Shown here one piece after another: positions 54,001 to 57,000 of a DNA stretch of 64,000 nucleotides. Each line of letters opens with the position of its first letter. The first letter of the stretch is position 1. Made by a program: the position numbers. Source of the stretch: Escherichia coli (lineage in GTDB: Bacteria > Pseudomonadota > Gammaproteobacteria > Enterobacterales > Enterobacteriaceae); assembly GCF_965641715.1 (NCBI RefSeq), contig NZ_OZ282453.1; one strand, given 5' to 3'.

Positions 54001-57000
54001 TGTTATCCTTGGCAATTCGATCATAATAATATTTGTTGTACCCAGATAAATTTTGCATAAACATCTTCTCTTATTAGATTAATAATATTATATTTCACCA
54101 TTGCTGAGTCTGTCCAACAGTGCTTGTTCTGAATTGCCACGGATAATCTAGACACTTCTCAACTATTGATACTGGTTTTCGTATTCAGTTGGTTGCATCT
54201 GATCGCTCGAACCATGCCTTCGTTTACTGTTATACAACATTTCGATGTAATCAATAATATCGCTATGTGCTTCTTACCACGTTCTGTAGATCTTTTTCTT
54301 TATCCGCTCACGTTTCAGCAACTAGAAAAAGTTTTCTGCAACCACATTATTGTGACAGTTACCGCGACCATTCATACTATCCTCCAGACCGTGTGATTTC
54401 AGGAACTACTAACGCTCATGGCTTGTGACCTGCTCCCTGATAATTCACACAGAAGGCTATTAGCAATGTCCGTTGATCGCTCACAGCCGACATTCAGCCC
54501 ACTAAATCCGACCGCGTCGATCAATATGCGGACAGGCTGTAGTACTAACTGCATTGTAGCTGTGAGATTTCACTATCGATGGCTTTTATAACCTGTTTAT
54601 AGCGGAGCATGACCTCTTCATGAATCATCATTAATCCGCGGCCGTACTCTGTGGCTATGATTGTATATCTTTTCAGGTGTGCAAGATGTTCTTTGTTGCC
54701 AGTAATGTCACTTGCAACCTGCGTGGAGTCCAGCCGTTCGATAAGCGCATTATTGCCGCGATAGGAATCAATTAGGCTTCTTGCGCTTGTATAAAAAGCC
54801 ACAATTTTTGAGAGTGTTTCTCTATGAACTTCAGGTAGGGATGCCGAGTTGGTTTCATAGAACGTGAAGTAGTTTTGAGTAATGGGGAAAATGTTATCGA
54901 ACGGTGAGTTCCGATCGTATTTTTCGATTTCTTCTGCCATTCTGGCCTGATACAGTTTAATCAGTGAATCTATTTCCTCTCTGACACCCAATAGCGTTGT
55001 TATACGCTTCTCTCTGGCCGCTGTTGCCTGCTGTTTTGCCTGCTGTTTCACCTGAGTTGTCACTCCTATCATCGTGAAACAGCCACCTAAAAGAGCTGCT
55101 AAAAATGCGGAGATGAGATCTGAATATTCGTGCCAGAAGGTTAGCATGGCGAAAATTCCATTGGGTTAAATTATGTCTATTTAACCACATAATGATACGA
55201 AGATACCTTCCAAAATGTTGCTATGACCCCATCTGTTGTTGCCTAGCTGGTGACGTGTCTGGGTATTAGCACCGTGCTCTCTCATTATCTAAGTCTGGGC
55301 CAATCCTCGTTCATAACAGGCATTCACTTCAGTCATGGCAGAAAGGTATGCATGCTGGAGAAGTCATGAAAGAAAAGAAGACTTCTGCCTCGTTTGTCAT
55401 CACTGTTATCTTCTCATTGATTATGCAGGTCATAGTGGGGACACACAAAGCTTTGTACTATCCGAAAGTGGTTAAGGTGGATCACTCCACCTTTTCATCA
55501 AGCCGGTCCGCCCACCATTGCATCATTTCTCTGCGCTTATCGAGATACTGAGCATGGTTGTAAATCCCACGTACAGATCCGCCGTTGGCATGTGCCAGTT
55601 GCACTTCAATGGCGTCGGCAGGCCATTCGTGCTCGTTCATAATCGTGCTGAATTCATGCCTGAATCCGTGACCGCTTTCCAGACCTTCATAGCCGATTTG
55701 TTTGATCACAAGTAGCACCGCGTTCTCGCAGATTGGCTTCTTCTTATCGTTGCGCCCGGAAAAAACAAACTCTGATACTGGTTTAGTGATTGAGCTTAGT
55801 GTAGTGAGAAGTTCAACCACCTGGTCTGACATCGGGACAACATGAATTTTGCGTCCCTTCATCACACTGGCGTCGATGGTGATAATCCTGTTTTCAAAAT
55901 CGACGTTCTTCCATAGCATGGAACGAAGCTCTTTTGTTCTTAGGGCTGTGTAGCGTAAAACTTTGGTCGCAATGAGCGATACGATACTTCCTGAAAATGT
56001 TGCAAGTGCTTTGTTGAATGCCGGGATCTGGTCGGCAGGTAAAAATGGGAAGTTCTTCTTGCGGTATCCCTTCATGGCGTCAGCAAGGTCAGGTGCCGGG
56101 TTATATTTAGCCCTACCAGTGACAATAGCGTAACGGAAAACCTCGCCGCATCTTCTGCGGGCTTTATTTGCTCGCTCCATTGCACCGCGATCTTCAAATC
56201 TGCGGATTACTTCCAGTAGTTGCATCGGCTCAATATCCTGAATTTCAAGACCGCCGATGATGGGTAAAATGTCGTCATCAAACATTTTTGCAAGTTCATT
56301 TGCATAGCCTACTGACCAGACTTGCTTCTTGTGCTCGTACCATTCCTTGTAAATGGCGCTAAAGGAATTGTTGTTAGACGAAGCCTTTTTCGCCTTTACC
56401 GGATCGATGCCAACCGAGATGTATTTCCTCGCAGTCCATGCTTTATCCCTTGCCTCTTGCAAAGTCATAAGCGGATATTTTCCGACGGTCAGGATTTTCT
56501 CCTTACCGTCAATCTTGTAGCGAAGCTGCCATACCTTTTTCCCTGACACAGGGACATAAAGGTACAGGCCATTACCATCGAGAAGGCGGTATGGTTTTTC
56601 TTTCGGCTTTGCTGCTTCAATCTGCTTAACGGTGAGCATGGGTAAAAATCCGGTGGGTAAAATTATTTTATCCACTTTTTACCCGTCATGGAGTGCGGCT
56701 GTCAACGATCTGAAGCGAACCATGACGAACTGTGAATCTACGGAATGCTTGATATTCAGGGGATTTTGCGAACTGGTACGGATGGGAGCGAACTGATAAA
56801 TGGTGTCCCCTGCAGGAATCGAACCTGCAATTAGCCCTTAGGAGGGGCTCGTTATATCCATTTAACTAAGAGGACAATGCGGCATGAGTATACCCGCTAA
56901 TGGACTGCGGGGTAAGTACGCTGCCGCTCGATTGCTTAAACCCTCGCCATTTATGCCGGGTTTTTATCATTTTTCTTAATGTTTTCCGCACGTTCTGCTT

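What the first reader, a model, noticed from the sequence alone, without database searches (positions are those of the whole stretch)
54065..54544. 480-bp ORF-free gap between the two cargo genes
The two integrase-proximal cargo genes are separated by ~480 bp with no convincing ORF on either strand, and the segment looks less AT-rich than the flanking cargo genes. It could hold the promoter and regulatory region of the 447-aa gene, a decayed gene fragment, or a structured non-coding RNA.
Basis: seen in the sequence. Interest (0 to 1): 0.3.

Follow-up and report, generated by a model that had tools for sequence, protein, structure and literature searches.

The report
Insertion-sequence debris between two prophage genes
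The 480-base "empty" stretch is a scar made of two dead insertion-sequence fragments and the last 13 codons of a deleted neighbour gene, so it is ordinary genomic wreckage rather than a new gene or RNA.

Summary
The gap is real. With the better-supported start codon at 54058 it runs 54059-54544 (486 bp). It has no intact gene, but it is not anonymous DNA. Read on the minus strand, which is the strand of both flanking genes, it has three parts.

- **54426 to about 54570:** a relic of a roughly 150-nt inverted-repeat element. Its terminus, TGACCTGCTCCC, is that of IS407-group IS3-family insertion sequences. The relic runs across the stop codon of the 200-aa gene.
- **54130-54427:** the last 301 bp of a different IS3-family element. 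It has an intact right terminal repeat and the C-terminal 80 or so codons of the transposase. It is 84.7% identical to an intact copy, with two nonsense codons. RefSeq already annotates it as a pseudogene in E. coli TL20.
- **54088-54129:** the last 13 codons and stop of a 227-aa gene. In the only two distant homologous loci, that gene sits directly upstream of the 445-aa gene. A 29-nt spacer with the ribosome-binding site follows.

A near-consensus sigma-70 site (TGGACA-18-TATAAT) lies inside the relic codons and is absent from those homologues. No terminator is predicted in the gap. No Rfam family matches, and covariation is not significant. Interest is low.

The parts
52721..54058 (-). Flanking 445-aa gene. 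It carries an HExxH motif (HEIAH) and resembles Lit / Peptidase_U49 metalloproteases. The start is at 54058 rather than 54064.
   Evidence: ORF list. PGAP start. The exact 445-aa product is on record in 233 blocks and the 447-aa version is not. Weak PADLOC Lit hit, E=5.9e-4. Precomputed PF10463. The homologues align to the second ATG.
54059..54087 (-). A 29-nt spacer holding the predicted 5' UTR and a Shine-Dalgarno-like GAGAAG upstream of the ATG at 54058.
   Evidence: Sequence. Alignment to L035 and L036, where a 26-nt intergenic spacer with GAGG precedes the ATG.
54087..54116 (-). Sigma-70 promoter-like site. The -35 hexamer TGGACA is at 54116-54111, followed by an 18-nt spacer and the -10 hexamer TATAAT at 54092-54087. 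It matches 11 of 12 consensus positions.
   Evidence: A site this good appears in 2% of shuffles of the gap and 0.4% of shuffles of the 71-bp segment, and only 3 occur in the whole 64-kb window. It is not conserved in L035 or L036. Function was not tested.
54088..54129 (-). Relic of the last 13 codons and stop (EQALLDRLSNGEI*) of a 227-aa gene. In homologous loci that gene lies directly upstream of the 445-aa gene. The rest of it has been deleted.
   Evidence: Alignment A5 with L035 (EQALLNKLNNSAN*) and L036 (EQALLNRLSNGGS*). tblastn finds 10 of 12 identical residues here (83.3%) and nothing else of the 227-aa protein anywhere in the window.
54130..54427 (-). IS3-family insertion-sequence relic, corresponding to the last 301 of 1229 bp of an intact element. 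The right terminal inverted repeat ends at 54130 (TGAATTGCCACGG read on the + strand). The C-terminal 80 or so codons of the OrfB transposase carry two in-frame stops and a 3-bp deletion.
   Evidence: Translation. Pfam rve_2 E=3e-12 and rve_3 E=7e-7. 2,553 plasmid records match at 83-85% identity. Alignment to the intact IS in L003 gives 84.7% identity over IS positions 929-1229. PGAP annotates an 'IS3 family transposase, internal stop, partial'.
54426..54491 (-). The 66-nt conserved arm of an IS407-group-like inverted-repeat element. Its outer terminus is TGACCTGCTCCC at 54426-54437 on the + strand. Homology to every other copy stops exactly at 54426.
   Evidence: The terminus matches the ISPa32 left repeat at 12 of 12 positions (PMC7378034) and the IS407A repeat at 11 of 12 (PMC2877748). 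Similarity continues inward with z of about 3.
54492..54570 (-). Linker and inner part of the opposite arm of the same inverted-repeat element. It overlaps the last codons and the stop codon (54545-54547) of the 200-aa gene. The outer edge is decayed and its position is uncertain.
   Evidence: Alignment with the complete 146-151-nt copies in L015, L020 and L027. The two arms pair to give the strong fold: -44.1 kcal/mol, z=-3.07. No second terminus is present in the window.
54545..55147 (-). Flanking 200-aa gene. It has an N-terminal transmembrane helix and belongs to no known family. It is conserved together with the inverted-repeat relic in several E. coli prophages.

Best explanation
The gap is a composite deletion and insertion scar with no gene or dedicated RNA of its own.

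**Shown.** Three things are established.
- An IS3-family element inserted 13 codons before the end of a 227-aa gene. That gene originally formed a tight pair with the 445-aa HExxH-protease-like gene.
- Only the last 301 bp of that IS survive, and they are mutationally dead.
- The broken inner edge of this IS abuts, to the base, the terminus of a second, IS407-group-like inverted-repeat element that trails the 200-aa gene.

**Inferred.** The rest of the 227-aa gene and three quarters of the IS were lost in a rearrangement at the terminus of the inverted-repeat element. This could have been insertion of that element into the IS, a transposase-mediated adjacent deletion, or recombination using the relic as portable homology. 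The rearrangement joined the 445-aa cassette to the intS/200-aa module of this argW prophage.

**Functional consequence (inferred, untested).** The 445-aa gene lost its operon partner and its operon promoter. It can now be transcribed only in two ways. One is from the near-consensus TGGACA-18-TATAAT site, which lies inside the relic codons, with a start near 54080 on the minus strand. The other is read-through from the 200-aa gene, since no intrinsic terminator is predicted in the gap.
For: - **Locus identity.** The window is 100% identical to E. coli TL20. The gene order there is argW tRNA, intS, 200-aa gene, gap, 445-aa gene, pin remnant, tail-fibre genes.
- **IS3 relic.** Supported, and by the RefSeq pseudogene annotation.
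- **Partner-gene relic.** The only two distant homologues of the 445-aa protein (70-72% identity) each have a 227-aa gene ending 26 nt upstream. The window aligns collinearly to its last 13 codons and stop, up to the IS terminus at 54130. No other piece of that gene or of the IS is in the window.
- **Inverted-repeat relic.** All copies share a sharp terminus, and complete two-armed copies exist elsewhere. The terminus is identical to IS407-group ends.
- **Variable DNA beyond the terminus.** Lineages that share the 200-aa gene carry different DNA beyond the terminus.
- **Promoter and terminator.** Promoter-like site. No terminator predicted.
- **Fixed scar.** The 486-bp gap is base-identical in 10 other assemblies that carry the exact 445-aa protein.
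Against: - No expression data exist, so the promoter and read-through statements are predictions from consensus scans.
- The 13-codon relic is too short to be significant by sequence alone (tblastn E=0.32). Its weight comes from position and collinearity with only two homologous loci.
- The order of events (IS insertion, deletion, joining) cannot be reconstructed from one junction, and no target-site duplications are available.
- Assignment of the inverted-repeat element to the IS407 group rests on a 12-nt identical terminus plus modest inward similarity (z of about 3-4). No intact parent IS was seen.
- The 66-nt arm is conserved at 87% mean column identity across at least ten genera. That conservation could mean it is more than debris.
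Confidence: 0.85

Rival explanations
1. The gap is primarily the native promoter and regulatory region of the 445/447-aa gene.
For: An 11/12 sigma-70 match is correctly placed 29 nt upstream of the start codon. An AT-rich 71-bp segment adjoins the gene.
Against: In the homologous loci the gene has only a 26-nt spacer after an upstream partner gene, so no native promoter region exists there. The promoter-like hexamers fall in relic codons and are not conserved. About 415 of the 486 bp are recognisable mobile-element remnants.
Confidence: 0.08
2. The segment encodes a structured non-coding RNA. One candidate is the long hairpin just downstream of the 200-aa gene, acting as an sRNA, an mRNA stabiliser or a processing site.
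For: The 123-nt stretch 54550->54428 folds to -44.1 kcal/mol, z=-3.07. The 66-nt core is conserved across Enterobacterales. A few G-U and compensatory substitutions occur in its 7-bp hairpin.
Against: No Rfam family matches at E<=1, apart from a chance eukaryotic snoRNA match inside the 200-aa gene. The fold comes from the two arms of a DNA inverted-repeat element. Covariation measures are not above shuffles (35/500 and 44/500), and RNAalifold finds no compensatory pair. The whole-gap fold has z=-1.5. The core occurs in either orientation relative to neighbouring genes.
Confidence: 0.05
3. The 66-nt core is a functional cis-acting DNA site rather than debris. It could be a landing pad or recombination site used by IS110-family RNA-guided transposases, or it could drive cargo exchange next to prophage integrases.
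For: The sharp terminus has different cargo beyond it in lineages that share the 200-aa gene. The core is conserved across genera. An IS110-family IS (331-aa transposase) repeatedly ends with the 27-nt inner hairpin of the core, and in two places the rest of the core follows it. There is precedent for IS110-family elements targeting IS3-family sequences (PMC11187229).
Against: A sharp boundary with unrelated flanks is what any IS end shows. The element is present at about one copy per genome. The left flanks of the IS110-family copies are C-rich and do not carry the inner part of the element, so simple targeted insertion is not demonstrated. No guide-like complementarity was found in its left non-coding region.
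Confidence: 0.1
4. One of the short ORFs in the gap is a real small-protein gene. The candidates are 76 aa at 54166-54396 (+), 57 aa at 54418-54591 (+) and 51 aa at 54399-54554 (-).
For: The ORFs exist mechanically.
Against: None has a Pfam match. The 76-aa ORF is antisense to the transposase relic and starts with TTG. The other two span junctions between unrelated relics and the 200-aa gene, so they are chimeric by construction.
Confidence: 0.02

Closest known systems
IS3-family insertion sequence with TGAATCGCCACGG terminal repeats (intact example: 1229-bp copy on E. coli C8 plasmid A, NZ_CP010126.1, locus L003 1589-2817)
   Same: Window 54130-54427 aligns to positions 929-1229 of the intact element. 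This covers the complete right terminal repeat ending in ...TTCA and the C-terminal rve-domain part of OrfB.
   Different: Only 24% of the element remains. It is 84.7% identical, with two nonsense codons and a 3-bp deletion, and has no orfA, no frameshift site and no left end. It cannot transpose. I could not assign an ISfinder name.
IS407-group IS3-family ends (ISPa32, IS407A) and miniature inverted-repeat derivatives of insertion sequences
   Same: The terminus TGACCTGCTCCC is identical to the ISPa32 left repeat and differs by one base from IS407A. The TTAG...GTCCG boxes further in are shared. Complete copies elsewhere are 146-151 nt with two inverted arms and no coding capacity.
   Different: There is about one copy per genome rather than many. 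The three complete copies show no 4-bp target duplication. The arms are unusually long at 66 nt. No intact parent IS was seen in the contexts inspected. The window copy lacks its second terminus.
Targeting of IS3-family sequences by IS110-family elements (ISEc21; Siddiquee et al. 2024, PMC11187229)
   Same: An IS110-family element with its long non-coding region upstream of a 331-aa transposase is found abutting this IS3-family-type repeat in plasmids of Klebsiella and E. coli.
   Different: No such element is present in the window. The ISEc21 target is inside the transposase gene, not the terminal repeat. For the element seen here, I could not tell whether the shared 27 nt is target or IS end.
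Lit (Peptidase U49) of prophage e14, an integrase-proximal abortive-infection protease (from established knowledge)
   Same: The gene to the left of the gap has an HExxH motif, weak Lit and Peptidase_U49 profile hits, and an integrase-proximal prophage position.
   Different: The hits are weak or faint. The protein is 445 aa. Its relatives are paired with a 227-aa protein that Lit does not have. This concerns the neighbouring gene, not the gap itself.

Membership tests
IS3-family insertion sequence (relic at 54130-54427) | Terminal inverted repeat with a 5'-TG...CA-3' end | tested here: met
   The right repeat TGAATTGCCACGGATAATCTAGACACTTC (read inward on the + strand from 54130) aligns to the right repeat of the intact copy in L003. 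Homology stops at the terminus.
IS3-family insertion sequence (relic at 54130-54427) | DDE transposase OrfB with an rve integrase-core domain | tested here: met
   The reconstructed 74-aa C-terminal peptide hits Pfam rve_2 (E=3.1e-12, above cut-off) and rve_3 (E=7.4e-7). Only the C-terminal part is present, with two in-frame stops.
IS3-family insertion sequence (relic at 54130-54427) | Complete element: orfA, programmed -1 frameshift, left repeat and 3-4 bp target duplication | tested here: not met
   Only positions 929-1229 of 1229 are present. No other fragment of the IS is in the window. It is therefore a remnant, not a functional member. A target duplication cannot be assessed from one end.
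IS407-group-like inverted-repeat (MITE-like) element (relic at 54426 to about 54570) | IS407-group terminus TGACCTGC(C/T)CCC | tested here: met
   An exact TGACCTGCTCCC lies at 54426-54437 on the + strand and is the only copy in the window. It matches the ISPa32 left repeat at 12/12 and IS407A at 11/12.
IS407-group-like inverted-repeat (MITE-like) element (relic at 54426 to about 54570) | Two terminal inverted repeats bounding a short non-coding element | tested here: inconclusive
   This is met in L015 (150 nt), L020 (146 nt) and L027 (151 nt). In the window only one terminus survives. The inner part of the other arm is recognisable but its end is decayed or overwritten by the 200-aa coding sequence.
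IS407-group-like inverted-repeat (MITE-like) element (relic at 54426 to about 54570) | Target-site duplication and multiple copies per genome | tested here: not met
   No direct repeats flank the three complete copies. The median is one place per E. coli genome and the maximum is two.
Structured non-coding RNA | Match to a curated RNA family | tested here: not met
   An Rfam 15 scan of 53900-54700 at E<=1 gave only a snoRNA hit at 19.7 bits against a gathering score of 44. That hit lies inside the 200-aa gene.
Structured non-coding RNA | Base pairs supported by covariation across homologues | tested here: not met
   Seventeen copies from at least ten genera were compared. Two of 14 pairs have double changes. 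The covariation score is 0.098 against 0.083+/-0.010 in shuffles (44/500 reach it). RNAalifold finds 0 compensatory pairs.
Sigma-70 promoter of the 445-aa gene | -35 and -10 hexamers with 16-18 nt spacing, placed upstream of the gene | tested here: met
   TGGACA-18-TATAAT matches 11/12, and its -10 hexamer ends 29 nt before the ATG. A site this good occurs in 0.4-2% of shuffles.
Sigma-70 promoter of the 445-aa gene | Transcription start demonstrated | not testable with these tools
   No expression data are available. The site is not conserved in L035 or L036.

The most novel reading that the evidence does not exclude
The 66-nt IS407-type arm that ends at 54426 may not be inert debris. It may be a conserved, horizontally spread cis element that serves as a breakpoint or landing pad, possibly for an IS110-family RNA-guided transposase whose right end carries the same 27-nt hairpin. 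Defence-like cargo next to prophage integrases would then be exchanged at this site. In the same reading, the near-consensus promoter built from relic codons arose to rescue expression of a Lit-like protease gene that lost its operon partner.
Probability: 0.1. Interest if true: 0.45.

Novelty: already known. Interest (0 to 1): 0.12.

Why it matters
It matters mainly as a clean negative: a long "empty" intergenic stretch in a prophage cargo region turns out to be layered insertion-sequence wreckage, half of it already flagged by RefSeq.

The useful by-products are annotational.
- The 445-aa Lit-like gene in this widespread E. coli prophage is an orphan. Its 227-aa partner was deleted, so any functional test should use the intact pair from the distant homologues.
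- The 200-aa gene ends inside IS-derived sequence.
- A conserved 66-nt IS-end relic marks the breakpoint where cargo differs between related prophages.

Tried and rejected
- **Rfam scan of the gap.** It gave only a sub-threshold snoRNA hit.
- **RNA structure.** The whole-gap fold is unremarkable at z=-1.5. The strong local hairpin is explained by inverted DNA arms. Covariation on 17 copies is not significant.
- **Short ORFs in the gap.** None has a Pfam hit.
- **Phage database.** The 445-aa cassette has no match there. Plasmid matches touch only the shared pin-side flank.
- **First idea that the 65 bp next to the 445-aa gene is native promoter DNA.** Replaced by the finding that it is the 3' end of a lost partner gene.
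- **First idea that the 117 bp next to the 200-aa gene is that gene's terminator.** No terminator is predicted, and the segment is an IS-end element.
- **Reading the core as the start of an IS3 orfA (MS..RS.RTFS).** No copy continues into a transposase ORF.
- **ERIC/IRU identity.** Considered from memory because of GTGAAT..CAGG.AGC. Rejected because the order of the motifs differs. It was not tested against a reference sequence.
- **Second terminus in the window.** None found within 2 mismatches.
- **Target duplications around complete copies.** None found.
- **Shared flanking protein across 18 contexts of the core.** None except a 314-aa hypothetical gene in three of them. The flanking hypotheticals have no Pfam domain.
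- **Guide-like complementarity between the IS110-family element's left non-coding region and its flanks.** Only 7-8-nt matches, not informative.
- **Literature search for the terminus.** It retrieved the IS407A and ISPa32 repeat sequences but no description of this element.
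Full report
**Observation.**
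The 447-aa ORF (52721-54064) and the 200-aa ORF (54545-55147) both lie on the minus strand. They are separated by 480 bp that hold only short mechanical ORFs of 76 aa or fewer. The three longest have no Pfam match.

The left gene more probably starts at 54058, giving 445 aa. PGAP uses that start. The exact 445-aa product is on record while the 447-aa one is not. Distant homologues align to the second ATG, which has the better-placed ribosome-binding site. The gap is therefore 54059-54544, or 486 bp.

Its GC content is 41.7%. That is higher than the 445-aa gene (35.3%) but not higher than the 200-aa gene (43.3%). The gap is internally heterogeneous at 31%, 40% and 50% GC.

**Where the window comes from.**
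The region is 100% identical to the E. coli TL20 chromosome. The order there is yfdC, tRNA-Arg, intS, 200-aa gene, gap, 445-aa gene, a pin recombinase remnant and tail-fibre genes. Ten other assemblies that carry the exact 445-aa protein have a base-identical 486-bp gap in the same context. The scar is therefore fixed in this prophage lineage.

**Part 1: an IS3-family relic (54130-54427).**
The minus-strand translation reads ...LEDSMNGRGNCHNNVVAENFF*LLKRERIKKKIYRTW*EAHSDIIDYIEMLYNSKRRHGSSDQMQPTEYENQYQ*. This peptide hits Pfam rve_2 (E=3e-12) and rve_3.

About 2,550 enterobacterial plasmid records carry IS3-family copies that are 83-85% identical over this stretch. Against an intact 1229-bp copy (L003), the window aligns to positions 929-1229 at 84.7% identity. 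It has a 3-bp deletion and two nonsense codons. The right terminal repeat is complete and ends exactly at 54130.

RefSeq already annotates 243 bp of this as 'IS3 family transposase; internal stop; partial'. No other piece of this IS is in the window.

**Part 2: a relic of a lost partner gene (54088-54129).**
The 445-aa protein family is tiny, with five clusters in 5.8 billion proteins. In the two 70-72% homologues that have usable contigs, the gene is preceded on the same strand by a 227-aa gene of no known family, 26 nt upstream.

The window sequence between the IS terminus and the 445-aa gene aligns collinearly to the last 13 codons and stop of that gene. The window reads EQALLDRLSNGEI*, against EQALLNKLNNSAN* and EQALLNRLSNGGS* in the homologues. 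So the IS inserted into the 3' end of the partner gene. The first 214 or so codons of the partner are gone, and the 445-aa gene is an orphan.

**Part 3: the promoter-like site.**
TGGACA-18-TATAAT (54116-54087, minus strand) matches 11 of 12 consensus positions, and its -10 hexamer ends 29 nt before the ATG. A site this good is found in 2% of shuffles of the gap and 0.4% of shuffles of the 71-bp segment. Only three occur in the whole window.

The site is built from the relic codons (L-D-R ... E-I-stop) and is absent from both homologous loci. It is therefore lineage-specific. It may have been selected after the operon promoter was lost, or it may be chance. No intrinsic terminator is predicted anywhere in 53900-54700, so read-through from the 200-aa gene is also possible. 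Neither route has been tested.

**Part 4: an IS407-group-like inverted-repeat relic (54426 to about 54570).**
The 117 bp next to the 200-aa gene are shared at 92-98% identity with other E. coli prophages that carry this gene. Homology ends exactly at 54426.

A 66-nt core...GTCGGCTGTGAGCGATCAACGGACATTGCTAATAGCCTTCTGTGTGAATTATCAGGGAGCAGGTCA| on the minus strand, recurs at 80-92% identity. It is found in about 500 E. coli genomes, about 400 plasmids and ten further species of Enterobacterales. The contexts are unrelated, and the core always ends at the same base.

Three copies (L015, L020, L027) are complete 146-151-nt elements made of two such arms in inverted orientation with a short linker. 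The terminus TGACCTGCTCCC equals the left repeat of ISPa32 and differs by one base from IS407A. Both are IS3-family elements. Similarity to the ISPa32 repeat continues inward, with z of about 3-4 when the first 12 nt are held fixed.

In the window one arm is complete and the inner part of the other is recognisable. That inner part overlaps the stop codon of the 200-aa gene. The second terminus is missing. The IS3 relic and this terminus overlap by the dinucleotide TG at 54426-54427.

**Is there a structured RNA?**
The 123 nt after the 200-aa stop codon fold strongly (-44.1 kcal/mol, z=-3.07). That is the pairing of the two inverted arms. Rfam gives nothing at E<=1 except a chance snoRNA hit inside the 200-aa gene.

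On 17 copies from at least ten genera, the conserved 7-bp hairpin and a second helix show only two pairs with double changes. Their scores are reached by 35-44 of 500 shuffles. RNAalifold finds no compensatory pair. Sequence conservation dominates, as expected for a protein-binding IS end. The RNA reading is not supported, but it is not formally excluded.

**Most likely history and consequence.**
The shown steps are the IS insertion into the partner gene, the truncation of both, and the exact abutment to the terminus of the inverted-repeat element. The inferred step is a rearrangement at that terminus. It could have been insertion of the element into the IS, an adjacent deletion, or recombination through the relic. 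It joined the 445-aa cassette to the intS/200-aa module.

Related prophages carry other genes beyond the same terminus. Many E. coli have a DUF262-HNH gene at the pin side. The interval between pin and intS is therefore a variable cargo slot.

The gap itself does nothing beyond possibly supplying a promoter. Its main biological meaning is that a two-gene module was broken.

**An unresolved side observation.**
An IS110-family element has a 331-aa transposase and its long non-coding region upstream. It is found in L021, L022 and L037-L039, with a relic in L019. It ends with ...GTCCGCTATGAGCGAnnAGCGGAmrTT, which is the inner 27-nt hairpin of the core.

In L019 and L022 the outer part of the core follows this end, in a short variant or a variant 32 nt longer. 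In L037 and L039 it does not. The left flanks of these copies are C-rich. IS110-family elements are known to target IS3-family sequences (PMC11187229).

I could not tell whether the 27 nt are target or IS end. I found no guide-like complementarity. This element is not present in the window.

**Comparison with what is known, and verdict.**
Every component belongs to a known kind: an IS3-family pseudogene, an IS-end or MITE-like relic, a gene stub and a consensus promoter. The largest component is already annotated in RefSeq.

The promoter option is plausible for about 30 bp. The ncRNA option is unsupported. Novelty is rated already known, and interest is low (0.12). The residual novel reading, a functional breakpoint or landing-pad role for the conserved 66-nt arm, is given a probability of 0.1.

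Noticed in passing
window 52721-54058 (minus); L035 529-2576; L036 3291-5338: The 445-aa gene encodes an HExxH (HEIAH) protein with weak Lit / Peptidase_U49 similarity. Its family has only five clusters. In the two 70-72% homologues it is the second gene of a tight pair with a 227-aa protein of no known family. This could be an undescribed two-gene, Lit-like defence module. The window copy is an orphan.
   Followed up: partly
window 54545-55147 (minus); L002, L033, L034: The 200-aa gene has an N-terminal transmembrane helix, no Pfam domain and weak ZorB/MotB hits over the TM region. It recurs at the integrase-proximal end of several E. coli prophages and on a plasmid, always followed by the inverted-repeat relic. 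Its last codons and its stop codon lie inside IS-derived sequence, so its C-terminus may be chimeric.
   Followed up: partly
window 54426-54491; L014-L020, L023-L032: A 66-nt IS407-type arm is conserved at 87% mean column identity across E. coli, Klebsiella, Enterobacter, Citrobacter, Pantoea, Erwinia, Serratia, Yersinia, Pectobacterium, Lonsdalea and Rouxiella. It occurs at about one copy per genome. No intact parent IS was seen in any context inspected. Nine of 17 copies lose homology exactly at the inner edge of the arm.
   Followed up: partly
L019 2495-2760; L021 and L022 1920-3221; L037-L039: An IS110-family element (331-aa transposase, about 225-nt upstream non-coding region) has a right end whose last 27 nt equal the inner hairpin of the 66-nt arm. 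Its left flanks are C-rich (..CCCCCTCCC|TTGTATC). It may target IS407-type repeats, or it may have captured part of one.
   Followed up: partly
L034 (E. coli PSS-04) about 3400-3620; L022 3195-3292: There is a long-tail variant of the arm. It has 32 extra nt between the hairpin and the ATTACTAAC box and still ends GGGGAGCRGGTCA. In PSS-04 it replaces the short tail downstream of an otherwise window-like 200-aa gene flank. This indicates mosaic recombination inside the element.
   Followed up: no
L014 4203-5147; L015 4198-5142; L024 (176-1120 nt past the core): The same 314-aa hypothetical gene (no Pfam domain) lies 127-176 nt downstream of the core, in the same orientation, in three unrelated places: a lambdoid prophage, a type I R-M island and Citrobacter youngae.
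   Followed up: no
window 52400-52720: A pin-type recombinase remnant lies just beyond the 3' end of the 445-aa gene. PGAP annotates it as 'recombinase family protein, partial'. Hundreds of other E. coli carry a DUF262-HNH gene at this junction instead. The pin-to-intS interval therefore behaves as a variable cargo slot.
   Followed up: partly
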